Shown: positions 34,114 through 48,913 of the stretch, piece by piece
Position numbering within the stretch: position 1 is the first letter of the stretch
Layout: each line of letters opens with the position of its first letter
DNA from: Candidatus Aceula meridiana
Lineage (GTDB): Bacteria > Omnitrophota > Gorgyraeia > Zapsychrales > Aceulaceae
Direction: 5' to 3'
NCBI GenBank assembly: GCA_030765185.1
Contig: JAVCDE010000026.1
Location: 108,007 to 172,006 of the forward strand
DNA length: 64,000 nucleotides
Position numbers and translations under genes: made by a program
Notes under the pieces: generated by a model
What the model was told of the DNA's origin: nothing
The model's input: only the letters and a program-made list of their open reading frames with translations
Databases searched by the model: none

Positions 34114-36069
34114 ATGAAAAAATCTTCGTTTTATAAAAGCTTCTTCCCACTTTGGGCCTGTGTTTTATTTTTTTGTTTTTGGTCTAGTGTCCTATCATAC
34201 AAATATCATTGCCTGGGATATACAGACTGGGACCTCGCCTTGCATTCTCAGACAATGTGGCAACTGACTCAAGGGAGTTGCTTTAATTCTCTTCTGGGGT
34301 GTAATTTCTTAGCCAACCATCTTAATTTTATCGCTTTTCTTTTTGTGCCCATTTACAAAGTTTTTCCAAGCCCATTGACACTACTTTTTCTCAAAGTTTT
34401 ATCGTATACCATAGGAGCAGCTGTTCTTTATAAAATTTCTGAGAAACACAACGGTCCTAATGTTGCAAAGTTTTTAATGTTGCTGTATGCGATTTTTCCT
34501 ATAACAATTTTTTCATTGAGCTTTGAGTTTCATTTTGAAAGTTTAGCTGTAGGATTTTTATTTTTAATGTTTTATTTCTTTGAGGAAGAGAACATCGCTG
34601 CTTTTTTTATTATGGCCTTTTTAACAGCTTCCTTAAAAGAAAATATGCCTTTGATATTAATAACTTTTGGTATCTATGGGTTTTTTGCGAAAAAAAGAAA
34701 AATGGTTTGGGGTTTGGCTTTGATTCTCTTAGGAATTTCTTTCTTTTATCTTGGAGTATTTGTTGTTGCTCCTTTTGCGCGTAAAGAGCTCCTTGTTCCA
34801 TATGTGTATTCTGCTCAATATCAACAAATCGGAGTTTCATCAGGTGGAAATTTTAATTTTTTAAATTTTGATATTTTTAAAATAGCGAAAATTTTGTTTA
34901 CAAAAAGTAATCTTAGTTTTTTTCTTAAAATGTTTGGCCCGTTGTTTATTGCTTTGTTTAGGCTGGACATTCTTTTTCTGGGAAGTCCGATTATATTGCA
35001 AAATATGTTGTCTTCTTCTTTTCAGCAGCAGACTATCTATTATCATTACACAGCGACCGTGCTTCCGTTTATTTTTATTGCAACAATTTTTGCGCTGAAG
35101 AAGTTTTCAAAAGTTTTAAAACGAAGGACATATGTGATTCTTTTTTTGTGTATTTTGCTGCTGAGTGCTGGGCGATTTTTGTTGTATGGCGTGAGCGTTT
35201 GGTTTCCGCGTATAAAGTATTGGAAAAACACCGATCAGCTTTTGAAGATAGTGATCTCGAATCCTCCTATTCAGTCTAATTTTCAATTTAATTATTTGGA
35301 CTATAAGAAGAAATTGATGAAAAGAGTTCCCAAAAAGGTTCCTGTTTTAGCAACGTTTGAATTTTTACCAGAATTCTCAAAGAGGCCATTTGTATATTCT
35401 TTTCATAACGTATTTGAAGGAAGAAATTATCTCACGGGTGATAGCTCATTTCAATTGTCAAACAATGTTCGGTATGCATTGATAAACTTCTATGATAGGT
35501 GGATGTCGATTATCGTAGATCGTCGGGGATATGAAAGAGCTTATCGATTTCTTGAAGACAACGACTGGTTTGTTTCGGAGGCTTTTGGGGACATTGTTCT
35601 GTTCCAAAAGGATGACCCCGAAAAGGTAAGACTAATCGAGAGGTCTCTTAAGAGCTTTCTTCCTAAAGAAGAGAATTCTGGTTTTTTTATCAGTGAAGAC
35701 TTTGAGTTGCTTAAATGCAAAACCATCCAGGTTCCGGATAACAATAAATTAGCGCTGACATTTTTTTGGAAGTCGAGAAGTCCAGTAAAAGACATATATT
35801 CGATGATATTTTTTATTGAAGGTAGCGATCCGACTATCGTTTATCCGCCGAGAGATATTGGTTATTCGGTGCATCCGACTTTAATGTGGGAAGAAGGGGA
35901 ATATATTAAAGAAAAGTATTGGTTGCCGCTTCCTGATTTAAAGCCAGGAAGTTATCGCCTTAAAGCGATTATTTTTAATATTAAAAATAGTATAATTTCA
36001 GATATCAAGAATTTAAAAACAAATAATGTTTCAAAAGAAATTATCGTAGCATCTTTTGAGATAGAATAG
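34114..36069 (+). CDS. polytopic membrane protein with C-terminal soluble domain, GT-C-like (DUF2079-like)
   Basis: More than 10 TM helices. A DWD acidic pair (YTDWDLALH) sits in the first extracytoplasmic loop. The C-terminal ~250 aa are soluble. Located in a glycan locus. Confidence 0.4.
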   Translation: MKKSSFYKSFFPLWACVLFFCFWSSVLSYKYHCLGYTDWDLALHSQTMWQLTQGSCFNSLLGCNFLANHLNFIAFLFVPIYKVFPSPLTLLFLKVLSYTIGAAVLYKISEKHNGPNVAKFLMLLYAIFPITIFSLSFEFHFESLAVGFLFLMFYFFEEENIAAFFIMAFLTASLKENMPLILITFGIYGFFAKKRKMVWGLALILLGISFFYLGVFVVAPFARKELLVPYVYSAQYQQIGVSSGGNFNFLNFDIFKIAKILFTKSNLSFFLKMFGPLFIALFRLDILFLGSPIILQNMLSSSFQQQTIYYHYTATVLPFIFIATIFALKKFSKVLKRRTYVILFLCILLLSAGRFLLYGVSVWFPRIKYWKNTDQLLKIVISNPPIQSNFQFNYLDYKKKLMKRVPKKVPVLATFEFLPEFSKRPFVYSFHNVFEGRNYLTGDSSFQLSNNVRYALINFYDRWMSIIVDRRGYERAYRFLEDNDWFVSEAFGDIVLFQKDDPEKVRLIERSLKSFLPKEENSGFFISEDFELLKCKTIQVPDNNKLALTFFWKSRSPVKDIYSMIFFIEGSDPTIVYPPRDIGYSVHPTLMWEEGEYIKEKYWLPLPDLKPGSYRLKAIIFNIKNSIISDIKNLKTNNVSKEIIVASFEIE

Positions 36070-36088
36070 AAAAGTAGAGGACGCCTGC

Positions 36089-36946
36089 ATGATAAGGTCT
36101 TTGCGTATTTATCAATGGATAAAGAATTTATTTATTTTTTCTCCTCTTATCTTTGGCCAAAACTTTTTTAATTTTGAAAAATTTCAAGCAACTTCATGGG
36201 TTTTTCTTGGGTTTTGTGCGCTTTCCAGCTGTATTTATATTATCAATGATTTTATTGATAAGGAGCGGGACGCTCAATCGCCTTATAAAAATAATATTTT
36301 TGTCCAACGCGGCGTTGTCAAAGCACGACCAGTGCTTTTTTTAAGCGGTTTTTTATTTTTGTTAGGATGTATATTGTGTGCGAAAGTGAATCAATCGGCA
36401 TTTTGGATAGGGATTGGTTATATAATTCTTAATGTTATTTATTCGCTATATGCAAAACAGTTTATTATTATCGATGTTTTTTTCATTTCTTTGGGTTTTC
36501 AAGCGAGGTTGTGGGCTGGAGGAGTTGCCTCTGGGATTTTTCCGTCTTTTTGGCTTCAGGCATGCATCTTTTGCCTCTCGTTATTTCTTGGGTTTGCAAA
36601 AAGGCGTAGAGAAATATATTTGCTAAAAGGGTTAGCTATTCACTATCGGGAAAACCTTTTAAATTATTCTGTTCGATTGTTAGATATTCTTCTTTTTGGC
36701 TGCGCAGGGCTGACCGCTTTATTTTATACAGCGTATGTCTTTTTATCTTTCTCCGCGAGGAAGATCAGCCCTTTTTGCATAAGGCTTTCTGTTGTTCTTG
36801 TGGTTGTTGGAATCATAAGGTATCTTTGTCTTGTTTATTCCGACAAGAAAAGAAGCGATCCAAGCGAATTGATTTTATCTGATATTTTTGTATTAAGTGT
36901 AATTATTATATGGGTGGCTTATATTTTTATTTTATTGTACAGATAA
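36089..36946 (+). CDS. UbiA-family polyprenyl-phosphate phosphoribosyltransferase-like (DPPR-synthase type)
   Basis: LRIYQWIKNLFIFSPLIFG ... YIINDFIDKERDAQSPYKNN matches the RxxQWxKN / NDxxDxExD signature of decaprenyl-phosphate phosphoribosyltransferases. Confidence 0.65.
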   Translation: MIRSLRIYQWIKNLFIFSPLIFGQNFFNFEKFQATSWVFLGFCALSSCIYIINDFIDKERDAQSPYKNNIFVQRGVVKARPVLFLSGFLFLLGCILCAKVNQSAFWIGIGYIILNVIYSLYAKQFIIIDVFFISLGFQARLWAGGVASGIFPSFWLQACIFCLSLFLGFAKRRREIYLLKGLAIHYRENLLNYSVRLLDILLFGCAGLTALFYTAYVFLSFSARKISPFCIRLSVVLVVVGIIRYLCLVYSDKKRSDPSELILSDIFVLSVIIIWVAYIFILLYR

Positions 36947-36966
36947 AGACTGTTAAATCATAAAGC

Positions 36967-37680
36967 GTGGTAGCCGTGAGAAGAAAATTTTTATATGCGT
37001 TAATTTTATTTTTTTTAGCAGTTTTTTTATTTTATTCCTGGATGGATGATCACAGTCGAGGATTAGATATTTATTTTGTGCGCCATGCTGAAACAGTTGC
37101 CAATGCTACAGGTGATTATAATGCAGAAAACCAAAAAGAATTTACAAAAAAAGGATATAGGCAAATACAGAATTTGACAAGAATTTTAGACAAGATGTCT
37201 TTTGACCATGTTTTGGTTAGCCCTAAATATCGGACGAAAAATACAATTCTGCCGTATTTAAAGAAAAATAATTTAGTTGGACAAATTTGGCCTGAAGTGG
37301 CGGAATGTTGTTGGCAAGGGGATGAACATATGCCTGCCTCAGTGGGTATCCCTTTTGGGAAAATTATTAACATAAAGAAAGAAAACTTTCGTTTTTTTAA
37401 ACTTAGAAGTTCATCCGCGGATAGATTTTATAATCCTCAAACATATAGCGATGGAATAGAGCAAATAAAGAGGGCTTGTGAATTAATTGAAAGAAAGTAT
37501 TCGGGGACCGGGAAATCTTTACTAATTGTTAGCCATTGGCTCGCAACAAGCCGCATGCTAGAAATGTTCTTAGGGATAGAAATAAAAGGCCGTTTTAATA
37601 TTAAAAATGCAAAACTAATCCATTTGCGGAAAGAAGCAGGTGGAAAATATCGGCTAATGACAACAGTAGATGCTTTTTAG
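36967..37680 (+). CDS. histidine phosphatase (PGM-like) family protein
   Basis: IYFVRHAETVANATGDY is the RHG-type catalytic motif. N-terminal TM anchor. Confidence 0.7.
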   Translation: MVAVRRKFLYALILFFLAVFLFYSWMDDHSRGLDIYFVRHAETVANATGDYNAENQKEFTKKGYRQIQNLTRILDKMSFDHVLVSPKYRTKNTILPYLKKNNLVGQIWPEVAECCWQGDEHMPASVGIPFGKIINIKKENFRFFKLRSSSADRFYNPQTYSDGIEQIKRACELIERKYSGTGKSLLIVSHWLATSRMLEMFLGIEIKGRFNIKNAKLIHLRKEAGGKYRLMTTVDAF

Positions 37681-37690: not shown

Positions 37691-38827
37691 ATGAATCAAC
37701 CTAAAATAGGCATTAAGACAATTGTTTTTTCACAGGCATCAGGAAGAGTCAAAGTTCTTAAGTTAATTGACTATTTTTTGGGAACGTTTGTAGCAACTAT
37801 TCTTCCGTCACAAGCAGTCTTTTTTAAGAAGCAATTTAAAGCATCAAGAATTTTGATTATTAGACCAGGAGGAATAGGGGACGCAATCTTTTTGATTCCC
37901 GCTATCAAAGAGATCAAGAAGCAACTATCAGGAATAGAGATTGATGTTCTTTGCGAAAAACGAAACAGACAAGTATTTTATCTTGAGAAAGATTTGGTAA
38001 GAAATATCTATTGCCGAGAAAAAATAAGGGATATGTGCGTCGTTTTTAATAACACATATGACGTTATTTTTGATTCTGAACAATGGCATTATCTTAGCGC
38101 GGTCTTCGCCTCTTTTTTAAAATCAAAAATAAGGGTTGGGTTTGCGACGCGCCCTTTAAGAAAAAAGTTGTTTAACTGTCGAATAGATTATGATGTTAAC
38201 GCCTATGAGTTGGATAATTTTAAGAATTTATTTGGATGCATTCTTAAAAAAAACGCAGGTCAGAAAGATATAAATAATTGCATCTCAATTGCTCAGCAAG
38301 AAGTCGTGCCAGCATCATGCCAAATATCAAGTGATTATGCAGTATTTGCCATTGGCGCAAGTATACCTGCGAGAAAGTTGAGAAGTGAGCAGATAAAGAA
38401 AGTAGTTAATATACTCATAGAGAGAAATCTAAATGTTGTTTTGCTTGGAGGGAAAGAGGCTGTCTCTTTAGGGCAATGCATAGATGAGTCTTTAAATGAT
38501 GAAAGGGTACATAACTATACGGGAAAGACTAGTTTAGCAAAAAGCGCTGATTTGATAAGAAATAGTAAGCTATTTATTGGCTCTGATTCAGGGATAATGC
38601 ATTTAGCGTGTGCTGTCGGGACTCCAGTCCAAGCAATTTTTGGTCCAGGCAATAAAAATAAATGGGGTCCACAAGGAGAAAAACATTTAATAGTCTCAAA
38701 GGGTCTAGAGTGCTCTCCTTGCACGGTATTCGGATATACAAACCCAACATGTAAGAGAAAATATTTATGTATGCAGGATATTGATATGAAGCAATTCTTT
38801 GATTCTATCAAAAGAATATTATGTTGA
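37691..38827 (+). CDS. glycosyltransferase family 9 (heptosyltransferase-like)
   Basis: ILIIRPGGIGDAIFLIPAIKEIKKQ N-terminal motif and a C-terminal GSDSGIMHLACAVGTP region. Confidence 0.75.
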   Translation: MNQPKIGIKTIVFSQASGRVKVLKLIDYFLGTFVATILPSQAVFFKKQFKASRILIIRPGGIGDAIFLIPAIKEIKKQLSGIEIDVLCEKRNRQVFYLEKDLVRNIYCREKIRDMCVVFNNTYDVIFDSEQWHYLSAVFASFLKSKIRVGFATRPLRKKLFNCRIDYDVNAYELDNFKNLFGCILKKNAGQKDINNCISIAQQEVVPASCQISSDYAVFAIGASIPARKLRSEQIKKVVNILIERNLNVVLLGGKEAVSLGQCIDESLNDERVHNYTGKTSLAKSADLIRNSKLFIGSDSGIMHLACAVGTPVQAIFGPGNKNKWGPQGEKHLIVSKGLECSPCTVFGYTNPTCKRKYLCMQDIDMKQFFDSIKRILC

Positions 38828-39735
38828 AATCTATAAGGACATATCGTCTGGCGAAGGATGTTTGTTGTGCTATTTGCAGGAGTCAAGAAGCAAAAGAGAT
38901 ATATGAATATTCTTATGAAAATAAAGAATATTTAATAGTGCAATGTTTGTCCTGTGGCCATTTATTTATCGCTTCTAATCTTTTAGTAAGTTTATCATCG
39001 CGCAGCATGGAAACAATTGAAGATGCTGAAATGCATGGTAGTCGCGCAATGAAGAATTTACATAAGCAATTTATTATAAAAAAAGAAATCAAGAAGACAA
39101 GACAGATTATAAGCAAGCCGCATCCCCGACTTTTAGACATTGGATGCGGAACGGGCTGGATCACAAATATATGGAAAGAAAGTGGTTTTGATGTTGTTGG
39201 GCTGGAGCCTTCACAGCAAAGGGCAAGAATCGCTGAAAGCAAATACAGCTTTCCTGTTTGCAAATCATATATTGAGGATTATTTTCCAGAAGAGAAGTTT
39301 GATGTGATTATCCTGCGTCATGTTTTAGAGCATATTGAAAATCCGACGGAGATATTAAATAAAATAAGAAGTTGGCTGGGCGCAGGAGGGATGTTAATTA
39401 TTACAGTACCCAATATAAATTCGATTGGAAGATATTTGTTTAGGAAGAATTGGGAATGGGTTTTGCCGTGGCATCTACATTTTTTTAAGCCAGACACCCT
39501 AATGGCCCTTACTCAAAAAACAGGTTTCCAAAAAGTGCATTTTTACCAAACACCGTCTCCTTTGTGGTATCCAGCAAGTTTTGGGAGAATCTTTAGAAAA
39601 GGGAGTAAGCTGAGGCAATATTTTTGTCAGGCACCTAGCGTGATTAAGCTGTTACCTTTTTTTCCTTTGATCTTAATTGGGTACATCTTTAATTTAAATG
39701 ATAATATGACACTATTTTTGAAGAAAGATGCATAA
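38821..39735 (+). CDS. class I SAM-dependent methyltransferase with N-terminal Cys4 ribbon
   Basis: LLDIGCGTGWIT (motif I). CAICRS ... CLSCGH. The start overlaps the GT9 stop. Confidence 0.75.
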   Translation: MLKSIRTYRLAKDVCCAICRSQEAKEIYEYSYENKEYLIVQCLSCGHLFIASNLLVSLSSRSMETIEDAEMHGSRAMKNLHKQFIIKKEIKKTRQIISKPHPRLLDIGCGTGWITNIWKESGFDVVGLEPSQQRARIAESKYSFPVCKSYIEDYFPEEKFDVIILRHVLEHIENPTEILNKIRSWLGAGGMLIITVPNINSIGRYLFRKNWEWVLPWHLHFFKPDTLMALTQKTGFQKVHFYQTPSPLWYPASFGRIFRKGSKLRQYFCQAPSVIKLLPFFPLILIGYIFNLNDNMTLFLKKDA

Positions 39736-39858: not shown

Positions 39859-42177
39859 ATGGACAAGAAGAAACTAAAAATTGTTTTTTATCGACATAGC
39901 CTATTGAGCCGAGGTGGTGACAAGATGATTATTTCCTATGCTAATTTTTTGTCAAAGCAAGGGCATGATGTTTGTTTGTATGCGAATATTTTTAAGACAA
40001 AATTTTTTGTTGATGAAAAAGTATCCGTTAAGCGAATTCCCTTAAGAACAAAATTTGGAACGATTTTGTGGGCCCTCCTAAAGGACATTGATGCTGACGT
40101 TGTTATCGCAGATATTATTGCAATGTCAGTATTTTTGTTTGCCCGAAATACAAAGCGTGTTTTGTATTTTGCACAAGATTATGATATTTTTTATTACAAA
40201 AGTATTGTGCTGCGCGTTTTAGTCTGGTTTTTTTATGTTGTTGGTTTAAAAGTTTTCAGGATTCCCTGCCTTGCAGTATCTGAAGGACTAAAAAAAGAAC
40301 TGAGTAGATTTAATAATGATATTAGTGTTGTCCAAAACGGGATTGATCTTAAGATTTTTTCACAGCAAGGAGACAGAATTCCAGGAGAGCATAAAAAATC
40401 AATTTTAATTTTTGCGCGGAAAGACTCAAGAAAAGGTTTGGATGTTTCAATAAAAGCATTAAAGGATTTTAATCTTCCTGATGCAGAAATTTGGGTAATA
40501 GGAGAGGAGCTTAGGGGCGAAGATTTTTCTATGCTTGTTCGGAATTTTGGCTATGTTTCCCCTGAAAGGGTTGCGATGATTTTACGAAGCGCAGCTGTTC
40601 TTTTGTATCCGAGCTACCATGAAGGCTTTGGGCTATTGGTTCTAGAGTCTATGGCCTGCGGCTGCCCCGTGGTAGCGACAGATACGGTTGGATTTATTAG
40701 GCATCAAGAAACAGGCTGGTTATCCTCTCTCGGTGATCCAGGCAGTTTTAAGGCGGGAATTGTTGCCCTGTTTGAGGACTACTCTTTTAGAGAAAAAATT
40801 GTTCAAAATGGTCTCCATCTGACAAAGCAATATGATATAAAAAAAAGCTGTTGGGATTTTGAAAAAGAGATATCGCAAAAGGTTGGTCAGATTAAAGAAA
40901 GAAAAAATGCAAAGGAACATAATTTGAAAGAAAGTTATAAAGACTATAAGTTCTATAATTTTCCTAAAAAATTATCTGTTGAGGATTATTACCAAGCAGA
41001 AAAAGAATTACTTTTATTTCTTTCAACAATCCCATGGATTAAGTCTGTCTATTATTATGGGTCTTATCCCGAATCTTTTATTCCGGGTTTATCCGACATT
41101 GACTTTATTTGCGTTATAGATCCTGCAATGAAGCACGATTTTTACCAAGTTTACCGATGGCTTAAGAAACATAAGTTTTTTCAAAATTTTGTTTATGATC
41201 AGGCTCCTTATTTTGTATCTGAGGATGTTTTTAGAAAGAGCCCTTATTATTTAACGAATTCCAGCTGGAGTTATAAATACAAATCCGGTGAGAGAATTAT
41301 TTTTCAAGATATTGATAAGACTCAAAAGTATTTTGTTTTATTGGTTCAGAATATAAGTTACGTCATTTTTGCTTTATCCCAACTAAATTTTTATTTAAGA
41401 ATAAGAGGTGTAAATGTTAGGAGATCACTCAATTTGTTAAAAGGGATAAGATCCAGAATTGAAGAGCTAAGAGGTTTGGATTTCTTAAATCCGAGGTGTG
41501 AAGAATTTCTAGAAGAGCTTCAAAATATTCGTAAAAATTGGTTCTTACTATCAACTCAAAAACAAAAATTAGAGATTTTACAAATGCTTGTAACAGGGAA
41601 ATGCCTTCTTGAGGAAATCGTCATATTTTTAAATAAGCATGCAGATGGCTTTCTTTTTACAAGAGCAAAAAATAAGAGAGAGGACCCTATTTTATTAAAA
41701 ACAGAAAGAAATATTTTGGCTATTTTTTCAGATAAGAGGTGGGAGCAAAGAGGATCTTCTTTTAGTCATAAAAGAATTTTCTTGGGTAACAAAATGCCAG
41801 TTTTCTTTTATCGATTAATGGATTTTTCTTGTTGGAATATTGTTGTCTTGCCGGAGAGTTTAGCTAATTACTTCTTTGCTATTTTAAGTTGTAAAAATAG
41901 TTTTAGCGGAAAAATAAAATCTTCTCTTATGTCGTCTCGTAATTTCTTTTTAACAAAATTAAATTGCCCCTTTTTAAATATTATACAAACGCAGGCCGAG
42001 TTTTATGATCGCTATTGGCAATTTTTGAACGCAACTCGATACGGGGCAAGCTTTTGTCCGTTTGTGCAACTTTTTATCAACGAAAGCATCGAGCTGTTTA
42101 GCCGTAATAATATTTTGCGTAAAATGATAAGATATTTATCGCGTTATAATTTTTGTTCCATTTTGAAAAAAATGTAG
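39859..42177 (+). CDS. GT4 glycosyltransferase fused to a C-terminal nucleotidyltransferase-fold domain (paralog 1)
   Basis: The N-terminal ~370 aa carry the GT4 motif EGFGLLVLESMACGCPVVATD. The C-terminal ~400 aa start YNFPKKLSVEDY ... YYYGSYPESFIPGLSDIDFICVID, fitting the Pol-beta NTase motif [GS]x9-13DxD. Confidence 0.6.
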   Translation: MDKKKLKIVFYRHSLLSRGGDKMIISYANFLSKQGHDVCLYANIFKTKFFVDEKVSVKRIPLRTKFGTILWALLKDIDADVVIADIIAMSVFLFARNTKRVLYFAQDYDIFYYKSIVLRVLVWFFYVVGLKVFRIPCLAVSEGLKKELSRFNNDISVVQNGIDLKIFSQQGDRIPGEHKKSILIFARKDSRKGLDVSIKALKDFNLPDAEIWVIGEELRGEDFSMLVRNFGYVSPERVAMILRSAAVLLYPSYHEGFGLLVLESMACGCPVVATDTVGFIRHQETGWLSSLGDPGSFKAGIVALFEDYSFREKIVQNGLHLTKQYDIKKSCWDFEKEISQKVGQIKERKNAKEHNLKESYKDYKFYNFPKKLSVEDYYQAEKELLLFLSTIPWIKSVYYYGSYPESFIPGLSDIDFICVIDPAMKHDFYQVYRWLKKHKFFQNFVYDQAPYFVSEDVFRKSPYYLTNSSWSYKYKSGERIIFQDIDKTQKYFVLLVQNISYVIFALSQLNFYLRIRGVNVRRSLNLLKGIRSRIEELRGLDFLNPRCEEFLEELQNIRKNWFLLSTQKQKLEILQMLVTGKCLLEEIVIFLNKHADGFLFTRAKNKREDPILLKTERNILAIFSDKRWEQRGSSFSHKRIFLGNKMPVFFYRLMDFSCWNIVVLPESLANYFFAILSCKNSFSGKIKSSLMSSRNFFLTKLNCPFLNIIQTQAEFYDRYWQFLNATRYGASFCPFVQLFINESIELFSRNNILRKMIRYLSRYNFCSILKKM

Positions 42178-42187
42178 GAGTGCCAGA

Positions 42188-43471
42188 GTGACTGGAGAAC
42201 AGGTTATAAGTAAAAATATTAAAGATTATAATTTTTTTAATTTTCCTAAGAAATTAAGCTTGGCGGATTATAAGGAAACTAAATCAAAAGTTATTTCCTA
42301 TCTTTCCAAGCAAAAAGGCGTTGTCTCTGTGTATACATTTGGAACATCTCGTGACATTTCCTGCCCTGGGATTTCTGATTTGGATATCGCCTTCATTCTT
42401 GATGAGGGAGCCAGGATTGACGGGGGGTGTTTTCATCAACTTCCTAGAGCTGGTAATAAAGATAAATATATTCTTCAGCATGGTTTGGGTTTTGGAGTTG
42501 ATAAATTCATTTTTAAGAATATTAAAAAAGTTTTATTCTTTCCAAATTCTGATTTGTTTCTAGAGTGGGGCCAGGGCATTCAGCTCGATTCGCCGTCTTT
42601 TAATGAGAAAAAGTTTTGTTATTTATCGAAGATTTATAAGACTGCGCTTAATTTGTCGACGGTATTTAATTTATTAGAGCTTAGGTCAATCAACATCCTA
42701 CATGCATTGAAATGTTTGAACGGAAATTGTCATGATATTAGGTCTGCGCAAGAGATAGGAATTAATCGAGATAATTGGGATGATTATGTCGATGAGGTTC
42801 TTTTGTTAAGAAGAGAATGGTTTATGTTTAAACAAAAAGAAGCTGTGGCACTTCTTTTTAGTCTATTGCACAAGTCGCTTGAGATTTTTAGAAGTCTTAT
42901 CGAAGCGTTTGAATCCTTTTCCGTATCTGAGGGAATTCCATCGCTAGAAACAAATGAGGTTAAGATTTTTGATACAAATTTTAACTGGATTATTCTTTTT
43001 TCGGATATGCATTGGAGGGATCTAGGATTTTCGGAGGCAGACTTTTGTCGTTCAAAGGCTTTAAATTATTTTCCATTGTTTCTAAAAGAAATTAAAAGAA
43101 AGACAAAGACCAAGATTTCCATTTTACCAGAGAGGGCGTTTATTCTGATTTATTTTTATGCACTTTTTGGAAGTTCTCTTAACCAGAATTTTAAGAGTAA
43201 GCTTCTTTTTAAAGAAATGCCTGATTTTACGTTAGGTAAGCTGCCTTATTATGGTGAATTCTATAATCGCGCTAACCTTTTTAGTCATTATTGGAGTTTT
43301 TTAAAAGAAAACAAATTGACTCGGATTTGGTTTCCCTGTGTTTCTTTTGTTGCCCAACCGGATTATTTATCACAAAATATAAAGTTTCAAGCTTGGAGGG
43401 TATTTTCCAATTATGATAAAAGAAGGACTTTGAGCAAAATATTAAACAGTAAAGAATTTTTGAATGGATAA
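42188..43471 (+). CDS. nucleotidyltransferase-fold protein, paralog 2
   Basis: FNFPKKLSLADY ... VYTFGTSRDISCPGISDLDIAFILD aligns with the C-terminal half of the previous gene and with the gene at 46031. Confidence 0.5.
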   Translation: MTGEQVISKNIKDYNFFNFPKKLSLADYKETKSKVISYLSKQKGVVSVYTFGTSRDISCPGISDLDIAFILDEGARIDGGCFHQLPRAGNKDKYILQHGLGFGVDKFIFKNIKKVLFFPNSDLFLEWGQGIQLDSPSFNEKKFCYLSKIYKTALNLSTVFNLLELRSINILHALKCLNGNCHDIRSAQEIGINRDNWDDYVDEVLLLRREWFMFKQKEAVALLFSLLHKSLEIFRSLIEAFESFSVSEGIPSLETNEVKIFDTNFNWIILFSDMHWRDLGFSEADFCRSKALNYFPLFLKEIKRKTKTKISILPERAFILIYFYALFGSSLNQNFKSKLLFKEMPDFTLGKLPYYGEFYNRANLFSHYWSFLKENKLTRIWFPCVSFVAQPDYLSQNIKFQAWRVFSNYDKRRTLSKILNSKEFLNG

Positions 43472-43480
43472 AAAAGAGTC

Positions 43481-44977
43481 ATGGCAAAGAAACAGCTAAT
43501 ATTTCTTACAATTATTTTACTTATTGCGATGTATTTTCAAATACATGATCTTGATCAGGAGAGTTTTCGATCTGACGAGGGATTCTCGGTCATGACAAGT
43601 CACCTTAGCTTATCCAAGATTATCCAAAAAACTTCTCTTGATGTTCATCCACCTCTTTATTATTTTATTTTACATTATTGGATGGAGTGGCTTGGAGATT
43701 CAGAATATTCAACGCGCCTGCTTTCTGTTGTTTTTGGTTTTTTGTTAATTTTCATGGTTTATCGATTAGGGTGTCTTATTTTCGATAAAGATGTAGGGCT
43801 TTTAGGGGCTTTTTTTGTTGCGCTTTCTAAGTTTCATATCAAGTATTCGCAAGACGCAAGAGGCTATAGTCTTTTAGCTTTTTTGGCGGTAGCATCGATG
43901 CACAGCTTTATAAAACTTTTTAAAAAAGAAAATAGGAATATTGACTATCTTGGATATATTTTCTTCAGCACTCTTTTAATATACACGCATATCTACGGTT
44001 TATTTATTATTATAGCGCAAAATATTTATTTTATAGTGTTGTGCTATTTTTCAAAATGGAAACGTAATTTTTGTTTTAAGAAATGGATTTTTTTGCAGAC
44101 GACACTTTTTATTTTGTTTCTTCCATGGGTTAGGGTTTTTATCGGGCAGGTATTTAGAATACAGGGGCACTATTGGATACGTGATCCTAGCATCCTGACG
44201 ACTTTTAGATTTTTAATTATTATTCTTGGTTCTAGGTCGTTGCTTTTTTTATTTTCAGTGTTGATACTCTTCGCCCTGGTAAGGCTTAGAAATAAGGATG
44301 AACTCTTTTTCAAAAAAAGCTTTTCAGAATCTTCTAATCCTTGTCACTCTAATAACAAATTGACGTTTTTTGAAAAGAATTTTTTTCTTCTTATGTGGAT
44401 TTTGACTCCCATGGTCCTGCCGTTTATCATTTCTAAGATTTCCACCCCCATTTACCATCACCGATATCTCATGGCGGCTTCGCCGGCTTTTTTCTTATTA
44501 GCGGCCAGAGGAATGGTGAATATAAGGAAATATAGCAAATATGTTGGTCTTTCTCTGCTCTTTATTATCATTTCTTTTTCTTTATTAGAAATCAATGAGT
44601 ATTATGACAAGGTGAAAAAGCATCAGTGGCGAGAAGCAGCTTATTATATTGAATCAAAAGCAAAAACTCAGGATTTATTATTGTTTAACGCAGGATTCTG
44701 TAGGGAAACTGCTTTTGCCTATTATTCTCGGAGAGCGGACATCACCAGGAGATCTTTTCCTCCAAAAGCTATTTTTGCTAATGAAGGCAACATAAGGAAT
44801 CTTGATCCGATCATTGAGCCCTATGATCGGGTTTGGTTTATATTGGCGCATAATCACGACCCTAAAAAGCTGATACTTAAAAAACTCAGCAAAGAGTATT
44901 GCTTGGTTGACTATAAAGAATACTTCTTAATAAAAATATTTTTATTTGAGAAAATCAACCCTAAGGCTCGGGAGTGA
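43481..44977 (+). CDS. PMT/ArnT-family GT-C glycosyltransferase (COG1807-like)
   Basis: Polytopic protein with DVHPPLYYFILHYWMEW in the first periplasmic loop, the conserved D-x-HPPL motif of ArnT/PMT-type GT-C enzymes. Confidence 0.65.
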   Translation: MAKKQLIFLTIILLIAMYFQIHDLDQESFRSDEGFSVMTSHLSLSKIIQKTSLDVHPPLYYFILHYWMEWLGDSEYSTRLLSVVFGFLLIFMVYRLGCLIFDKDVGLLGAFFVALSKFHIKYSQDARGYSLLAFLAVASMHSFIKLFKKENRNIDYLGYIFFSTLLIYTHIYGLFIIIAQNIYFIVLCYFSKWKRNFCFKKWIFLQTTLFILFLPWVRVFIGQVFRIQGHYWIRDPSILTTFRFLIIILGSRSLLFLFSVLILFALVRLRNKDELFFKKSFSESSNPCHSNNKLTFFEKNFFLLMWILTPMVLPFIISKISTPIYHHRYLMAASPAFFLLAARGMVNIRKYSKYVGLSLLFIIISFSLLEINEYYDKVKKHQWREAAYYIESKAKTQDLLLFNAGFCRETAFAYYSRRADITRRSFPPKAIFANEGNIRNLDPIIEPYDRVWFILAHNHDPKKLILKKLSKEYCLVDYKEYFLIKIFLFEKINPKARE

Positions 44978-45047
44978 ATTAATAGTTATAAAAATTTTTA
45001 GGATTTAAGAATTAATTTATAAAGTCTGTTTTTTCAGTGTTTACTTA

Positions 45048-46034
45048 TTGGATAATTTTGAAAGGATGGCTCTTGTGAGGATAGGAAAAGAATGGAAAGT
45101 TTTAAGAATTTCTAGAAAAAAGGTATTTTTGATAATGCTGCTACTTGTAGTTACTTTTTTCTTCTCGAGGAAGCCAGCTGATGTCCCTGAGCCAGTAGAT
45201 ATCCTTAATAATGCTCCGTTTGGGCATCCTTTTATAATTTATGAAAATAATGATTTTTATGCTATCTATAAGCCCCCTGGCTACATTGTTAGCGTTTCGT
45301 CAACTAATAAGCATGGAAATTTAGAGAATTTAGATCCAAATGGGCTTTTTCTTCAGAAGTGGTTGTCAGATAATTTTACGTACCCTATATCTAAGAATCC
45401 AAAGTATCGATACGGCCTGTTGCATCGATTAGATAAAAATACTTCTGGGGTTGTCCTTGCGGCTAAGAATGCTGCTTTTTGGGATTATGGATGGAGAGAA
45501 TTTTTTTATAAAAGAAAAATAAAAAAGAAGTATTTTGCCTTGGTTCATGGGAGGGTAGATCAATGCGGAGGAGATATTGCTAGAAGCATTGCGTGTTCAC
45601 ACACAAGAAACTTTAGATCTTTTACATGCAGGACCGTTCATCCAAAAAAAGGAAAATGTGCATTCTCTCGATATAAAGTTCTAGATTATTTTCAGAATAA
45701 AACAACAAAAGAATATTATTCTTTATTAGAGGTTCAAATCATAACAGGGAGAACTCATCAGATTAGAGTACACGTGTCTTCTATAGGGCATCCAATAGTT
45801 AGTGATGATAGATATATAGATGATAAAAATATGTTAGATGCGGACAGGGATTTCTGTCCAAGGATTTTTTTGCATGCAAAAGAAGTTTTTTTTCCTTATC
45901 ACGGTAAGATGATAAGAATTATTTCAGAGTTGCCAGAGGATTTAAAAAAAGCTTTGAGCCGGATAGATTTTTACGGGAAATGCTATAAGGAAGAAGAAAC
46001 TTATGGCAAAGCAGAGAGCAAAGGAGAACAATGA
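45048..46034 (+). CDS. RluA-family pseudouridine synthase with N-terminal TM helix
   Basis: HRLDKNTSGVVL is the catalytic Asp motif, and GRTHQIRVH is present. An N-terminal hydrophobic segment (VFLIMLLLVVTFFF) is present. No S4 domain. Confidence 0.7.
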   Translation: MDNFERMALVRIGKEWKVLRISRKKVFLIMLLLVVTFFFSRKPADVPEPVDILNNAPFGHPFIIYENNDFYAIYKPPGYIVSVSSTNKHGNLENLDPNGLFLQKWLSDNFTYPISKNPKYRYGLLHRLDKNTSGVVLAAKNAAFWDYGWREFFYKRKIKKKYFALVHGRVDQCGGDIARSIACSHTRNFRSFTCRTVHPKKGKCAFSRYKVLDYFQNKTTKEYYSLLEVQIITGRTHQIRVHVSSIGHPIVSDDRYIDDKNMLDADRDFCPRIFLHAKEVFFPYHGKMIRIISELPEDLKKALSRIDFYGKCYKEEETYGKAESKGEQ

Positions 46035-47305
46035 AAAGCACACCTTTTTTTTGTAATTTTCCGAAGAAATTAACTTTAAGAGATTATCAGGACGCAAAAA
46101 AAGATATTATTTGCAGCTTAGAAAAAGATTCTAGAGTTTCTTCTATTTATTCTTTTGGAAGCCGCGTAGAGGAAGGGTTAGATCCTGGTATTTCTGATAT
46201 GGATTTTCTTGTTTTAATAAAGAAAAAAGTGCGTGCGGAACTGGAAAATAAAAATCGATTTGAAGATAAGGCCTACGGAAGCGAGATCATTCGGTATATT
46301 TTAATGAACCAGCCAGCATGTTATCCGATAAGCGAGGGTTATTTAAGGCATTTTTCGTATTTTTTATGTAACGCTACAACACGTTTACAATGCGAGAAAG
46401 GGTATCAAGTTGACTACGGAGAGTTTTGTGAGACAAAAGGTGTAGAAGATAAAGTGGTTGTTTTGGGTGTCATTGCCCAAATTATAGAAATGTCGATAGC
46501 TAAAATTTGTATTTTACATGGAAGCCTCAACTCTGGAAGAATGGATGCGCGATTAATTTTAAAAATTTTACGCGGGATAAAAAACAATATTAAAAGGATG
46601 AAGGTTCTAGGATTTACCGATACTCGGTGGGATAATTTTATTGATTACATATCGGTTTTTAGGAAGGATTGGCATTCTTTTGAAAAGAAGGATCAAGAAA
46701 CTTTTTTAAAAGAGCAAAGGCTTCTTGGGTTAGAAATTTGTATCGAAATTTTATCAGAGCTTGATCAATTTCTTAGAAATAATATCTTCACTTCTTTGCA
46801 TGGAAGCAAGACTGCTCGAAATCTTTTGATGAAAGTTCATGATAATCGATTTATTTTATTTTCGGATTTTTTATGGAATAAAAAGCAGAATCTTTTCTTA
46901 GCTTTAAATAAAATAAGAAAAATAAATTTAAAACCTTGGGATATCGTTGTTCTGCCAGAATCGGTCTTTTTTTATTTTAGTTGTCATGCACAAATAGACA
47001 GCTTGTTAGGGCGATCCATAAGATCGATGATGGCATTCCCTGGGGTGGACATATCGGTGGAGAAGGTCGATGATTCTTACAGAGACGCTTTTTTTAAGCA
47101 AGCAGAGATCTATAGTCAATATTGGAATTTTTTATTAGAAAATGGTTTTAGTTATGGAATCGGGGGGCTAACCAGATTATTTTATAGGGAGCATCCCTTA
47201 AGAAATTTAAAGTCTAGAATAAAGAGGGTCATTTCTTTTTTTTATAAGCGAAATGCCTTGAGAAAGATTCAAAAGTTGTTTGGATGTGATACGCACGGAT
47301 TATAA
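46031..47305 (+). CDS. nucleotidyltransferase-fold protein, paralog 3
   Basis: CNFPKKLTLRDY ... IYSFGSRVEEGLDPGISDMDFLVLI. Overlaps the RluA stop by 4 nt. Confidence 0.5.
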   Translation: MKSTPFFCNFPKKLTLRDYQDAKKDIICSLEKDSRVSSIYSFGSRVEEGLDPGISDMDFLVLIKKKVRAELENKNRFEDKAYGSEIIRYILMNQPACYPISEGYLRHFSYFLCNATTRLQCEKGYQVDYGEFCETKGVEDKVVVLGVIAQIIEMSIAKICILHGSLNSGRMDARLILKILRGIKNNIKRMKVLGFTDTRWDNFIDYISVFRKDWHSFEKKDQETFLKEQRLLGLEICIEILSELDQFLRNNIFTSLHGSKTARNLLMKVHDNRFILFSDFLWNKKQNLFLALNKIRKINLKPWDIVVLPESVFFYFSCHAQIDSLLGRSIRSMMAFPGVDISVEKVDDSYRDAFFKQAEIYSQYWNFLLENGFSYGIGGLTRLFYREHPLRNLKSRIKRVISFFYKRNALRKIQKLFGCDTHGL

Positions 47306-47415: not shown

Positions 47416-48144
47416 TCAAAGAATTTCTTCCTGATGGGATATTTCTGATTTGTTTAGAAATATGATTCGATCTGCCAGTTGCTGCATGAGAGAGAGATCG
47501 TGAGTTACCAGCAGAAGAGTTTTTCCTTTAGTTTTTAGTTCATTCATTTTGGCAAGGCATTTTCTTTTAAAATCTTCATCGCCCACTGCAATAATCTCAT
47601 CGATTAAATAAATATCTGCCTGGCTATGAATCGCGATAGAAAATGCCAGTCGTAAATACATACCCGAAGAATATTTTTTTACGGGCATATCAATAAATTC
47701 TTGGATTTCAGAGAAATCAATAATAAGGTCTAACAGATTCTTTATCTCAGGAATTTTCATCCCCAAGATTGCACCGTTAATAAAAATGTTTTCCCTTCCT
47801 GTCAAGTCTTTATGAAATCCTGCGCCAATTTCAAGAAGAGGCGCTATTCTTCCTTCTGCCTTGATTGTTCCTTTTGTCGGATAAGTTACTCCTGCGATTA
47901 GTTTTAGGATAGTACTTTTCCCAGCACCATTTGGTCCATAAAAGCCTAAAGTTTCTCCTTGAGCTATTGTCAGGTTGATTTTTTTTAGTGCCCAGAATTC
48001 GTCAGAACTGAGGTCTTTATTTTTTTTAAATTGAAATATATTAGCAATATCTTCACGCAATGATTTATGAAAGATTCTACTGCGTGAATATTTTTTCCAG
48101 ATATTTTTAAATTCGATTATTGGAGCATTAGATGACATCGGCAA
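47416..48144 (-). CDS. ABC transporter ATPase, Wzt/TagH-like (polysaccharide export)
   Basis: Walker A GPNGAGKST, signature YSSGMYLRL, Walker B IYLIDEIIAVGD. 242 aa, no C-terminal carbohydrate-binding domain. Confidence 0.8.
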   Translation of the reverse strand: MPMSSNAPIIEFKNIWKKYSRSRIFHKSLREDIANIFQFKKNKDLSSDEFWALKKINLTIAQGETLGFYGPNGAGKSTILKLIAGVTYPTKGTIKAEGRIAPLLEIGAGFHKDLTGRENIFINGAILGMKIPEIKNLLDLIIDFSEIQEFIDMPVKKYSSGMYLRLAFSIAIHSQADIYLIDEIIAVGDEDFKRKCLAKMNELKTKGKTLLLVTHDLSLMQQLADRIIFLNKSEISHQEEIL

Positions 48145-48913
48145 ATTTTCTTTCAGCTATTTTGAAGAAAGCAAAAGACATAATTAAAAAGATTGTTCCA
48201 GCAATAAGCATAGAAAGATATTCAGTGACGTTTATTGGTTTTCCTAAGAATAGACAGATTCTAAGATTCTTGATGATATATGCTAGAGGATTTAGAAAAG
48301 TAATTATTTTAAATCTTTCAGGAAGATTGTCGAGAGAATAAAGGATGGGGGTCGCAAAAAACCATAATCTTAATAAGGTAGCAATGGCTAAGCCGACGTC
48401 TCTATAATAAACATTAATGGAGCAAAGCAGCAGAGAGAAGGAAACGGTGAATAAGATTAAAAGTATGGTTAACGGGACACAGAATAGGGCTGTTAAGGGT
48501 ATTGGAATTTTATAAAAGAATAAGATACCCGCAAATATAATTCCAGCAATTAAGAAATCAACGAAGGCGACAGCAATGCCCGACAGGGGAAGAAAAATTC
48601 TTGGAAATTTTATTTTTTTAATTAAATTATGGTGGTTTGTTAAGCTTGGAACTGAATAATTTAAAGAAGAAAGAAAGAAAGTCCACGGTAGAAGGCCTGA
48701 GTAAAAGAAGACCGGTCTTGGTAAGTTAGAAACATGAGTAGGGATGACATAAGTAAAAATAAATGTAAAAACCAACATAAAACTAAGAGGCTGAATGATC
48801 GCCCAGGCTATGCCGAAAACCGCCTGGTTATACCGAACCGAAAACTCTTTCCAGATAAAGATTAACAGTAAATCTTTACACCGTATAATGTCTTTTAGTT
48901 CGGCTAGAAGCAT
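48128..48913 (-). CDS. ABC-2 type permease, Wzm/TagG-like
   Basis: 261 aa, 6 predicted TM helices. Overlaps the ATPase gene start. Confidence 0.7.
   Translation of the reverse strand: MLLAELKDIIRCKDLLLIFIWKEFSVRYNQAVFGIAWAIIQPLSFMLVFTFIFTYVIPTHVSNLPRPVFFYSGLLPWTFFLSSLNYSVPSLTNHHNLIKKIKFPRIFLPLSGIAVAFVDFLIAGIIFAGILFFYKIPIPLTALFCVPLTILLILFTVSFSLLLCSINVYYRDVGLAIATLLRLWFFATPILYSLDNLPERFKIITFLNPLAYIIKNLRICLFLGKPINVTEYLSMLIAGTIFLIMSFAFFKIAERKFADVI

What the first reader, a model, noticed from the sequence alone, without database searches (positions are those of the whole stretch)
39859..47305. Three paralogous nucleotidyltransferase-fold proteins in an envelope-glycan locus, one fused to a GT4
The C-terminal ~400 aa of the GT4 protein (39859-42177), the 427-aa ORF at 42188 and the 424-aa ORF at 46031 all begin with the same conserved segment. 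They read [YFC]NFPKKL[ST][LV]xDY ... G[ST]xxxxxxxPG[LI]SD[ILM]DF[ILV]. This fits the minimal Pol-beta nucleotidyltransferase signature and is followed by a long helical domain. I do not recognise them as any characterised family. LicD and fukutin/FKRP use the same fold to add phospho-alcohols (P-choline, ribitol-P, glycerol-P) from CDP-donors onto glycans. Triplication next to GTs, a Wzm/Wzt exporter and GT-C enzymes suggests a set of glycan-decorating phosphotransferases or nucleotidyltransferases with different specificities. This is the strongest candidate for an undescribed system in the window.
Basis: partly seen in the sequence, partly recalled or inferred. Interest (0 to 1): 0.72.

Follow-up and report, generated by a model that had tools for sequence, protein, structure and literature searches.

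The report
Uncharacterised antibiotic-nucleotidyltransferase-like enzymes in glycan locus
Three related genes in a cell-surface sugar-polymer operon of an uncultured Omnitrophota bacterium belong to a widespread but unstudied enzyme family that resembles antibiotic-inactivating nucleotidyltransferases, is repeatedly fused to sugar-adding and methyl-adding enzymes, and so probably decorates surface glycans in a way not yet described.

Summary

The family ("X") has 860 representatives at E<=1e-3, all from uncultured bacteria and archaea. Every locus examined is a polysaccharide-assembly locus. X is fused to GT4 (here), GT2, SAM methyltransferases, and, in giant proteins, to GT9 plus methyltransferase. 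In about 22 of about 29 loci it pairs with a second undescribed NTase-like family ("X'").

The window's clade shows a GT4-GT2-GT2-X(1 or 3 copies)-Wzt/Wzm block. The neighbouring UbiA/phosphatase/GT-C genes fit the known lipid-linked pentofuranose pathway.

Best reading: cytoplasmic enzymes that add a nucleotide-derived group to a glycan hydroxyl before ABC export. The chemistry is inferred, not shown. Verdict: a real, undescribed family and a new variant of a known kind. Interest 0.62.

The parts
39859..40878 (+). GT4/GT1-type glycosyltransferase domain (aa 1 to about 340) of the 772-aa fusion protein
   Evidence: Pfam Glycos_transf_1 E 1.9e-22, Glyco_trans_1_4 E 1.4e-20, Glyco_transf_4 E 2e-6. 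It is 44% identical over 342 aa to a stand-alone GT4 in L038 that sits upstream of three separate X genes.
40939..42177 (+). X_A: family-X domain (aa about 361-772) fused to the GT4. The NTase core G401...S412-D413-x-D415 lies at nt 41059-41103.
   Evidence: Family HMM aligns aa 361-773, E 1e-72. BLASTP to X_C gives E 5e-33. Its best outside match is the GT2-fused copy in L002.
42188..43471 (+). X_B: stand-alone family-X protein, 427 aa. The NTase core G52...S63-D64-x-D66 lies at nt 42341-42385.
   Evidence: Family HMM E 1.5e-83. BLASTP to X_C gives E 5e-31. Positions 153 and 174 are K and L where the family has D/E and R.
46031..47305 (+). X_C: stand-alone family-X protein, 424 aa. The NTase core G43...S55-D56-x-D58 lies at nt 46157-46204.
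37691..38827 (+). GT9-family glycosyltransferase, same operon
   Evidence: Pfam Glyco_transf_9 E 1.4e-29. GT9 lies within about 2-4 genes of X in 10-11 loci and is fused to X'-X in L044 and L047.
38821..39735 (+). SAM-dependent methyltransferase (Methyltransf_23), same operon, just upstream of GT4-X_A
   Evidence: Pfam E 8e-28. Methyltransferases are adjacent or fused to X in L002, L006, L009, L010, L011, L012, L044 and L045.
47416..48144 (-). Wzt-like ABC ATPase, 242 aa, no C-terminal carbohydrate-binding domain, convergent with X_C
   Evidence: Pfam ABC_tran E 5.4e-19. It is 41-52% identical to Wzt proteins beside X in 11 other loci. The same X-then-convergent Wzt/Wzm layout occurs in L049 and the P0004 contig.
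48128..48913 (-). Wzm-like ABC-2 permease
   Evidence: Pfam ABC2_membrane E 3.9e-16; homologues beside X in 9 other loci.
34114..37680 (+). Context only, not part of X: DUF2079 membrane protein (34114-36069), UbiA-family polyprenyl-phosphate phosphoribosyltransferase (36089-36946), histidine-phosphatase-family protein (36967-37680)
   Evidence: NF008977 decaprenyl-phosphate phosphoribosyltransferase 189.5 bits, below its 234-bit cut-off. DUF2079 and UbiA are conserved next to each other upstream of the X triplet in L038 (33% and 37% identity). The pathway logic follows PMC11127046.
43481..44977 (+). Context only: PMT_2 GT-C-type membrane glycosyltransferase between X_B and RluA. A second copy lies at 49103-50572.
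   Evidence: Pfam PMT_2 E 2.4e-10 and 3.6e-12; 8 TM-like segments each.

Best explanation
The three genes encode paralogues of an uncharacterised family (X) of the Pol-beta nucleotidyltransferase superfamily. The first ~250 aa have the two-domain build of antibiotic O-nucleotidyltransferases (ANT(3'')(9)/AadA, ANT(4'), LinB): a catalytic NTase domain with two metal-binding Asp, then a HEPN-like helical bundle. An extra ~170-aa alpha/beta C-terminal domain is peculiar to the family.

I propose that they are soluble or peripheral cytoplasmic enzymes. Each would bind a common NTP with Mg2+ and transfer a nucleotide-derived group (most simply an NMP, giving a sugar-O-phospho-nucleoside) onto a hydroxyl of the polyprenol-linked glycan built by the GT4 and GT9 enzymes of the same operon. 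The Wzm/Wzt transporter would then export the polymer. The adjacent SAM methyltransferase would act in the same decoration step. The three copies would differ in acceptor position or donor.

Shown: paralogy, fold, conservation of the catalytic core, family size, gene context and domain fusions. Inferred: catalysis, the donor, the acceptor and the order of steps.
For: 1. Fold and active site.
- AF2 model pLDDT 89, pTM 0.90.
- hhalign pairs G43-S44 with KNTase G38-S39, and S55-D56-x-D58 with S49-D50-x-E52.
- Across 128 relatives, S55 is 100% conserved, D56, D58 and G53 are 99%, and G43 is 98%. In the helical domain K/R211 is 97%, R174 84% and D/E153 83%. All three window copies keep the core.

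2. Glycan context in about 35 loci from more than 14 phyla. Within +-2 genes of X: GT1/4 12, GT9 10, GT2 8, Wzx 7, ABC_tran 6, ABC2_membrane 5, Wzt_C 4, methyltransferases about 6-9.

3. Fusions.
- GT4-X (window), GT2-X (P0008/L002), X-methyltransferase (P0019).
- X'-X-TPR-GT9-methyltransferase (L044), X'-X-TPR-GT9-GT1-like-GT2 (L047), X'-X-methyltransferase (L045).
- The window's GT4 half is a separate gene (44% identity) in L038.

4. Window clade. The block GT4-GT2-GT2-X(1 or 3)-Wzt/Wzm recurs in L038, L037/L002, L049 and the P0004 contig.

5. Donor. No dedicated donor-synthesis genes are in the window, which fits use of a common NTP.

6. Localisation. No convincing TM segments in the X proteins.
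Against: - No biochemical datum exists for any member, and I know of no nucleotidylated bacterial polysaccharide.
- Sequence similarity to any NTase is confined to about 55-85 residues.
- Secondary positions conserved in the wider family are not kept in all three window copies: position 93 is N/H/Q where the family has H, and position 153 is E/K/S where it has D/E. One or two copies could have altered or reduced activity. Alternatively the alignment may be unreliable there.
- I could not read model coordinates, so the proximity of R174, R211 and D/E153 to the Asp pair is unchecked.
- Context alone cannot separate glycan modification from donor synthesis.
Confidence: 0.45

Rival explanations
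1. Chain terminator or capping module. X (with X' where present) plus the methyltransferase would form the non-reducing-end cap that stops polymerisation in ABC-transporter-dependent pathways. This would be an NTase-fold counterpart of the kinase-methyltransferase terminators WbdD and K. pneumoniae O7 ORF6. It is a more specific version of the best explanation.
For: - Characterised terminators pair a methyltransferase with an aminoglycoside-kinase-like domain, sometimes fused to the polymerising GTs (PMC11231755; PMC3482155).
- X'-X is fused to methyltransferase and/or GT9/GT1-like/GT2 modules with a TPR spacer (L044, L045, L047).
- In L020, L025, L027 and L045 the order is Wzm, Wzt, then X'-X. 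Wzt in 9 of the 10 other X loci measured is 412-452 aa, and Wzt_C was detected in 4. From memory, Wzt_C is the module that reads terminal caps.
Against: - The window's own Wzt is 242 aa with no CBM, as in L049 (228 aa) and the P0004 contig (239 aa).
- At least 9 X loci use Wzx, and some also have Wzy (L009 and L012 by Pfam; Wzx cluster). Terminal capping does not apply there.
- No coiled-coil ruler was seen in X. The model is a compact bundle.
- One cap would not need three copies.
Confidence: 0.2
2. LicD/fukutin-like phosphotransferase. X would transfer a phospho-alcohol (P-choline, glycerol-P, ribitol-P) from a CDP-alcohol onto the glycan and release CMP.
For: X shares the superfamily with LicD. 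LicD-family enzymes act in capsule and teichoic acid assembly with CDP conjugates (PMC11666461). CTP_transf_3 cytidylyltransferases occur near X in 3 of 123 neighbours.
Against: - No hit to Pfam LicD (PF04991) for the three proteins at E<=0.1 or for 66 relatives at E<=0.01.
- No CDP-alcohol synthesis genes in the window and none among the 25 commonest neighbour families.
- From memory, the CTP_transf_3 family makes CMP-Kdo and CMP-sialic-acid type donors, not CDP-alcohols.
Confidence: 0.1
3. Donor synthesis. X (with X') would make an unusual nucleotide-activated sugar, for example an NDP-heptose for the associated GT9, by nucleotidyl transfer to a sugar-1-phosphate.
For: GT9 is the most distinctive recurrent neighbour (10-11 loci) and is fused to X'-X. 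L006 reads transketolase, transaldolase, GmhA-like, GmhB-like, GT9, methyltransferase, X', X, Wzx, with no recognisable heptose kinase or nucleotidyltransferase.
Against: - Most X loci have no GT9 nearby. L038, L049 and L002/L037 from the window's own clade show none in the sequence available.
- Fusion of donor-synthesis enzymes to GT2, GT4 and methyltransferases is unusual.
- I know of no Pol-beta-fold sugar-1-phosphate nucleotidyltransferase.
- The missing heptose genes in L006 could lie elsewhere in that genome, since the contig is only 7.8 kb.
Confidence: 0.12
4. Not a glycan enzyme. X would be a protein-AMPylating regulator, a non-catalytic scaffold, or an MNT-HEPN-type toxin-antitoxin or defence module that sits in glycan loci by chance.
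Against: - Near-invariant catalytic residues argue against a scaffold.
- Context is glycan assembly in essentially every locus examined, and the fusions are to GTs and methyltransferases.
- The PADLOC hits cover only the generic NTase core, and X_A and X_B have none.
- The GT4 half scores far better against the general GT1/GT4 models (80 bits).
Confidence: 0.06

Closest known systems
Aminoglycoside/lincosamide O-nucleotidyltransferases: ANT(3'')(9)/AadA, AAD(9), ANT(4')/KNTase, LinB
   Different: - X is about 170 aa longer, with an extra C-terminal alpha/beta domain and a conserved N-terminal F-x-N-x-P...DY strand-helix.
- Sequence similarity is limited to about 55 residues (hhalign E 0.019).
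- NCBIfam ANT(9) scores 19 bits against a 340-bit cut-off.
- The genomic context is glycan assembly, not resistance.
- X occurs fused to GTs and methyltransferases.
LicD / fukutin / FKRP phosphotransferases (Pfam PF04991)
   Same: Same superfamily. They are the only established NTase-fold enzymes that decorate glycans (PMC11666461).
   Different: No sequence or structural match was detected. The C-terminal architecture differs. No CDP-alcohol donor genes lie nearby.
WbdD and K. pneumoniae O7 ORF6-N kinase-methyltransferase chain terminators
   Same: An antibiotic-modifying-enzyme-like catalytic domain is paired or fused with a SAM methyltransferase, and sometimes with polymerising GTs, in Wzm/Wzt loci (PMC3482155; PMC11231755).
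Family X'
   Same: Homologous NTase core with a shared downstream His motif (hhalign probability 89.8%, E 1.8e-6, 84 columns). It lies directly upstream of X or fused to it in about 22 of about 29 loci.
   Different: It has a distinct ~180-aa N-terminal extension and C-terminal region, with its own motifs (HGSxATxD...GxSDxDT, DPFQHHG, YKxxSF). It is absent from the window and from the window's clade, where extra X copies occur.

Membership tests
Pol-beta nucleotidyltransferase superfamily (Pfam NTP_transf_2 / Polbeta) | hG[GS] ... [DE]h[DE]h motif on the alpha-beta-alpha-beta-alpha-beta core | tested here: met
   The motif is present in all three and in 149 of 151 relatives. X_C passes NTP_transf_2 (27.2 against 21 bits). 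X_A and X_B score below threshold. The model has the expected helix-strand-strand core and structural matches to NTases.
Pol-beta nucleotidyltransferase superfamily | A third conserved carboxylate or catalytic base near the Asp pair | tested here: inconclusive
   Candidates are H93 (74%), E102 (45%) and D/E153 (83%) family-wide, but they vary among the three window copies. Model coordinates could not be read to measure distances.
ANT-type antibiotic nucleotidyltransferases (ANT(3'')(9)/AadA, ANT(4'), Lnu) | Sequence membership in curated models (NCBIfam ANT_9, PRK13746) | tested here: not met
   19.2 bits against a 340-bit cut-off and 12.9 against 193, for X_C only. The PDB profile search gives E 0.04 over the N-terminal 70 aa.
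ANT-type antibiotic nucleotidyltransferases | Two-domain fold: NTase domain plus C-terminal helical bundle | tested here: met
ANT-type antibiotic nucleotidyltransferases | Nucleotidylation of an antibiotic hydroxyl; resistance context | not testable with these tools
   The context is glycan assembly in all loci. Activity needs an assay.
LicD / fukutin / FKRP (PF04991) | Match to the LicD profile | tested here: not met
   No hit at E<=0.1 for the three proteins, and none at E<=0.01 in 66 relatives.
LicD / fukutin / FKRP (PF04991) | Structural similarity to FKRP or LicD catalytic domains | tested here: not met
LicD / fukutin / FKRP (PF04991) | Co-occurrence with CDP-alcohol donor synthesis (LicC, TarI, IspD-type cytidylyltransferases) | tested here: not met
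   None in the 64-kb window. Not among the 25 commonest neighbour families.
WbdD-type chain terminators | Kinase (ePK/APH-like) fold | tested here: not met
WbdD-type chain terminators | Pairing with a methyltransferase in a Wzm/Wzt locus | tested here: met
   In the window the methyltransferase is at 38821-39735 and Wzt/Wzm at 47416-48913. Fusions occur in P0019, L044 and L045.
WbdD-type chain terminators | Coiled-coil ruler and a Wzt with a cap-binding CBM | tested here: not met
   The model is a compact bundle. The window's Wzt is 242 aa with no Wzt_C. Long Wzt proteins do occur in the X'-X loci.

The most novel reading that the evidence does not exclude
X, with its partner X' in most lineages, is a new class of glycan-modifying enzyme. 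It would be a Pol-beta-fold glycan O-nucleotidyltransferase that places a nucleotide-derived or (methyl)phospho-type group on nascent polyprenol-linked polysaccharides. In ABC-transporter loci it would serve as the chain-terminating cap maker. That would make it the nucleotidyltransferase counterpart of the kinase-type terminators, in the same way that ANT enzymes parallel APH enzymes in aminoglycoside resistance. The family is spread across many uncultured bacterial and archaeal phyla.
Probability: 0.3. Interest if true: 0.78.

Novelty: new variant of a known kind. Interest (0 to 1): 0.62.

Why it matters
If X enzymes decorate or cap glycans, they add a new catalytic fold and possibly a new type of substituent to bacterial and archaeal surface-polysaccharide biosynthesis.

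- **Reach.** The family has hundreds of 50%-identity clusters, and every record retrieved comes from uncultured lineages (Omnitrophota, Chloroflexi, Nitrospirae, WOR-3, Saccharibacteria, Methanosarcinales, Woesearchaeota and others), whose envelopes are essentially unknown.
- **Testability.** The domain fusions (GT4-X, GT2-X, X'-X-TPR-GT9-methyltransferase) give ready-made constructs for in-vitro tests.
- **Evolution.** The link to antibiotic nucleotidyltransferases bears on where resistance enzymes came from. A housekeeping glycan-hydroxyl nucleotidyltransferase would be a plausible ancestor type for ANT enzymes.
- **Annotation.** X and X' currently carry only "nucleotidyltransferase domain-containing" or "hypothetical" labels. 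Both could be defined as families.

Tried and rejected
- **First AF2 run.** With a 4-sequence alignment it gave pLDDT 49.5 and was discarded. It was rerun with 128 sequences.
- **Word-indexed homologue searches.** The single-sequence search found only one non-self hit. The search with the 66-sequence alignment was swamped by fusion-partner words and added little. The exhaustive profile search was what revealed the family.
- **The search for related loci.** It worked with tighter sub-alignments, but these sample only one or two exact peptide patterns, so locus counts are small and biased.
- The afdb50 fold library was unavailable.
- **Sequence-profile searches of the PDB.** They gave only marginal N-terminal hits and spurious helical hits such as FAS death domain and designed proteins.
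- **Promoter and terminator scan.** At chance level (51 against 59.9 expected; 15 against 10.7), so it is uninformative for operon boundaries.
- **One paralogue as the X' equivalent.** Rejected: the X' HMM finds nothing in the window at E<=1e-3.
- **Obligate heterotrimer.** Made unlikely by single-copy loci in the same clade (L049 and the P0004 contig).
- **Link to sulfate activation or alkaline-phosphatase-superfamily genes.** Seen in L008, L009, L010 and L012. This is too sporadic to build on, and such genes are absent from the window.
- **K. pneumoniae O7 'unannotated kinase' as an X homologue.** Rejected: the paper reports an AmiN/APH-like fold.


Full report
**1. Observation**

The window comes from a MAG of Candidatus Aceula meridiana, phylum Omnitrophota. 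The three ORFs are at the stated coordinates. There are two small departures: B ends DLDIA, and C has one extra residue between G[ST] and PG.

The similarity is not confined to the N-terminus. Each pair aligns over about 400 aa at 25-27% identity, with E-values from 3e-23 to 5e-33. Motifs are also shared far downstream. A family HMM finds exactly these three members in the 64 kb. The first 340 aa of the 772-aa protein are a GT4/GT1-type glycosyltransferase.

**2. The operon**

Genes from 34114 to 47305 lie on the + strand with gaps of at most 123 bp.

| Coordinates | Gene |
|---|---|
| 34114-36069 | DUF2079 membrane protein |
| 36089-36946 | UbiA-family polyprenyl-phosphate phosphoribosyltransferase |
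| 36967-37680 | histidine-phosphatase-family protein |
| 37691-38827 | GT9 |
| 38821-39735 | SAM methyltransferase |
| 39859-42177 | GT4-X_A |
| 42188-43471 | X_B |
| 43481-44977 | PMT_2 GT-C |
| 45048-46034 | RluA-type pseudouridine synthase |
| 46031-47305 | X_C |

A convergent Wzt/Wzm pair and a second PMT_2 GT-C follow.

The UbiA, phosphatase and GT-C components match the published logic for extracytoplasmic pentofuranose addition: a polyprenyl-phosphoribose synthase, a 5'-phosphatase, and a GT-C transferase (PMC11127046). That part of the locus is therefore a known kind of system. It does not need X to be explained.

**3. Fold**

Profile libraries give only weak N-terminal hits. X_C passes Pfam NTP_transf_2 (27.2 against 21 bits). 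X_A and X_B are below threshold for Polbeta. No NCBIfam model is reached and nothing covers the C-terminal 330 aa.

An AlphaFold model built on four sequences was poor. With 128 relatives it reached pLDDT 89 and pTM 0.90.

I verified a recalled kanamycin nucleotidyltransferase sequence against PDB 6un8. Profile alignment to it pairs G43-S44 with G38-S39, and S55-D56-x-D58 with S49-D50-x-E52. From memory, D50 and E52 are the KNTase metal ligands.

So the fold claim is right, and the nearest known relatives are the antibiotic O-nucleotidyltransferases. X is about 170 aa longer than those enzymes. It has an extra C-terminal alpha/beta domain and a conserved N-terminal F-x-N-x-P...DY element.

**4. 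The family**

An exhaustive profile search of 1.84 billion cluster representatives found 860 proteins at E<=1e-3 and 296 at E<=1e-10. Most are 350-430 aa. Those looked up are unnamed metagenome singletons. The window protein is labelled only 'nucleotidyltransferase domain-containing'.

The motif [SA][IV]Y.[FY]G...PG[ILV]SD[LI]D is present in 149 of 151 retrieved proteins. Conservation across 128 members:

| Position (X_C numbering) | Conservation |
|---|---|
| S55 | 100% |
| Y19, G53, D56, D58 | 99% |
| G43 | 98% |
| K/R211 | 97% |
| W214 | 94% |
| R174 | 84% |
| D/E153 | 83% |
| H93 | 74% |

All three window copies keep the core. They differ at positions 93, 153 and 174.

A reference-genome scan with a single peptide pattern returned 23 loci. 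They come from Desulfobacterales, Nitrospirae, Anaerolineae, Nitrospinota, Chloroflexia, Spirochaetales, WOR-3, Syntrophus, Saccharibacteria, Planctomycetia, Bacteroidetes, Thermodesulfobacteriota, Methanosarcinales and Woesearchaeota. All are MAGs.

**5. Context and fusions**

Every locus examined is a polysaccharide-assembly locus. Among 123 proteins within two genes of X in about 29 loci, the commonest Pfam families were:

| Class | Members |
|---|---|
| GT1/GT4 | 12 |
| GT9 | 10 |
| GT2 | 8 |
| Wzx flippases | 7 |
| ABC_tran / ABC2_membrane / Wzt_C | 6 / 5 / 4 |
| SAM methyltransferases | about 6-9 |
| B12-radical SAM | 4 |

BLAST clustering gave the same picture.

Fusions:
- GT4-X in the window.
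- GT2-X in P0008/L002.
- X-methyltransferase in P0019.
- X'-X-TPR-GT9-methyltransferase in L044 (1945 aa).
- X'-X-TPR-GT9-GT1-like-GT2 in L047 (2337 aa).
- X'-X-methyltransferase in L045 (1027 aa).

**6. A partner family, X'**

The unannotated gene directly upstream of X in many loci defines a second family, X'. It is 340-465 aa with the motifs HGSxATxD...GxSDxDT, DPFQHHG and YKxxSF. It is adjacent or fused to X in about 22 of about 29 loci.

X' shares the NTase core with X (hhalign probability 89.8%, E 1.8e-6). It is absent from the window and from the window's own clade.

**7. The window's clade**

L038 carries DUF2079 (33% identity to the window's), the UbiA enzyme (37%), and a stand-alone GT4 that is 44% identical to the GT4 half of the window fusion. 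Two GT2 genes and three tandem X genes follow.

L037/L002 carry a GT4 fragment (44%), a GT2, a GT2-X fusion, two more X genes and a TylF-type O-methyltransferase. X_C has clear orthologues there at 43-45% identity.

L049 and the P0004 contig have a single X directly before convergent short Wzt/Wzm genes, as in the window.

The conserved block is therefore GT4-GT2-GT2-X (one or three copies)-Wzt/Wzm. In two lineages the first X is fused to the preceding GT, and that GT belongs to a different family in each. Variable copy number argues against an obligate heterotrimer. It favours paralogues with distinct specificities.

**8. Mechanism**

I commit to the following. X proteins have no convincing TM segments. 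They probably act at the cytoplasmic face on the polyprenol-linked glycan made by the co-encoded and fused GTs. Like their ANT relatives, they would use an NTP and Mg2+ held by D56 and D58 to transfer a nucleotide-derived group to a sugar hydroxyl. The associated methyltransferase would take part in the same decoration. Wzm/Wzt would then export the product.

The fold, conservation, context and fusions are shown. Catalysis, donor, acceptor and order of steps are inferred.

A sharper version treats X'-X plus the methyltransferase as a chain terminator. It would be analogous to the kinase-methyltransferase terminators of E. coli O9a and K. pneumoniae O7, which use aminoglycoside-kinase-like domains (PMC3482155; PMC11231755). 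This fits the giant fusions. It also fits the long Wzt proteins next to X'-X, some with a detected Wzt_C domain. It fits the window less well, because the window's Wzt has no such domain. It cannot apply to the Wzx loci.

**9. Rivals**

- *LicD-like phospho-alcohol transfer.* Not supported by sequence, structure or neighbouring donor genes.
- *Nucleotide-sugar synthesis for GT9.* Suggested by L006, where heptose-pathway genes lack a recognisable kinase or nucleotidyltransferase. It is weakened by the many X loci without GT9 and by the fusion partners.
- *Regulatory, scaffold or defence roles.* Unlikely given the context and the invariant catalytic residues. The PADLOC hits are weak and cover only the NTase core.

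**10. Novelty**

No Pfam model covers the protein, and no NCBIfam model is reached by the three window proteins. A literature search found no description of ANT-like enzymes in glycan loci. The superfamily and the general idea of NTase-fold glycan decoration (LicD, fukutin) are known. I therefore rate this a new variant of a known kind. It is a real finding of above-average interest, but its chemistry is unproven.

Noticed in passing
window 34114-37680, 43481-44977, 49103-50572: A pentofuranose-type periplasmic glycosylation set: a UbiA-family polyprenyl-phosphate phosphoribosyltransferase (NF008977 189.5 bits, below its 234-bit cut-off), then a histidine-phosphatase-family protein where known systems use a HAD or Rv3807c-type phosphatase, plus three GT-C-like membrane proteins (DUF2079 and two PMT_2). 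No MATE or SMR flippase and no DprE-type epimerase were seen in the window. The DUF2079-UbiA pair is conserved in L038.
   Followed up: partly
window 45048-46034: An RluA-family pseudouridine synthase (TIGR00005 141.7 bits, below its 192.7-bit cut-off) is embedded in the glycan operon. Its stop overlaps the X_C start by 4 bp. No RluA homologue was found beside X in other loci. It is probably a housekeeping passenger, but the tight coupling is odd.
   Followed up: partly
L003, L006, L010, L011, L013-L018, L020-L034 (e.g. L018:1618-2916; fused in L020:6741-9182): A second undescribed NTase-like family, X' (340-465 aa; motifs HGSxATxD...GxSDxDT, DPFQHHG, YKxxSF), lies directly upstream of X or is fused to it in about 22 of about 29 loci. 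It has no Pfam family beyond weak NTP_transf_2 hits. It may form a heterodimer with X.
   Followed up: partly
L044:525-6359, L047:8690-15700, L045:8606-11686: Giant multidomain proteins: X'-X-TPR-GT9-methyltransferase (1945 aa), X'-X-TPR-GT9-GT1-like-GT2 (2337 aa) and X'-X-methyltransferase (1027 aa). From memory, they resemble the terminator/polymerase megaproteins of ABC-transporter-dependent O-antigen pathways.
   Followed up: partly
L006:2-7802: Transketolase, transaldolase, GmhA-like SIS, GmhB-like HAD, GT9, methyltransferase, X', X, Wzx. This is a heptose-type pathway with no recognisable anomeric kinase or nucleotidyltransferase on the contig.
   Followed up: no
L011, L013, L016, L017, L018, L040 (e.g. 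L040:8192-9757 and 11125-12510): B12-binding radical SAM enzymes sit immediately next to X in at least six loci. L040 has one on each side of X. This hints at C-methylation or other radical chemistry coupled to X.
   Followed up: no
L009:3931-9980, L012:1218-1778 and 6001-7689, L008:1-1446, L010:7409-8689: Sulfate-activation genes (CysD/CysN-like in L009, APS kinase in L012) and alkaline-phosphatase-superfamily proteins (Phosphodiest, Sulfatase) cluster with X in a subset of loci. None are present in the window.
   Followed up: no
window 30549-33998: A 1149-aa ORF directly upstream of the glycan operon has only a C-terminal GNAT acetyltransferase domain (aa about 907-1028). The first ~900 aa have no Pfam match.
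   Followed up: no
window 8194-9960, 3268-4065, 55045-55566: ORFs of 588, 265 and 173 aa with no Pfam match at the thresholds used. The 173-aa ORF is adjacent to a polyprenyl synthetase gene (55556-56728).
   Followed up: no
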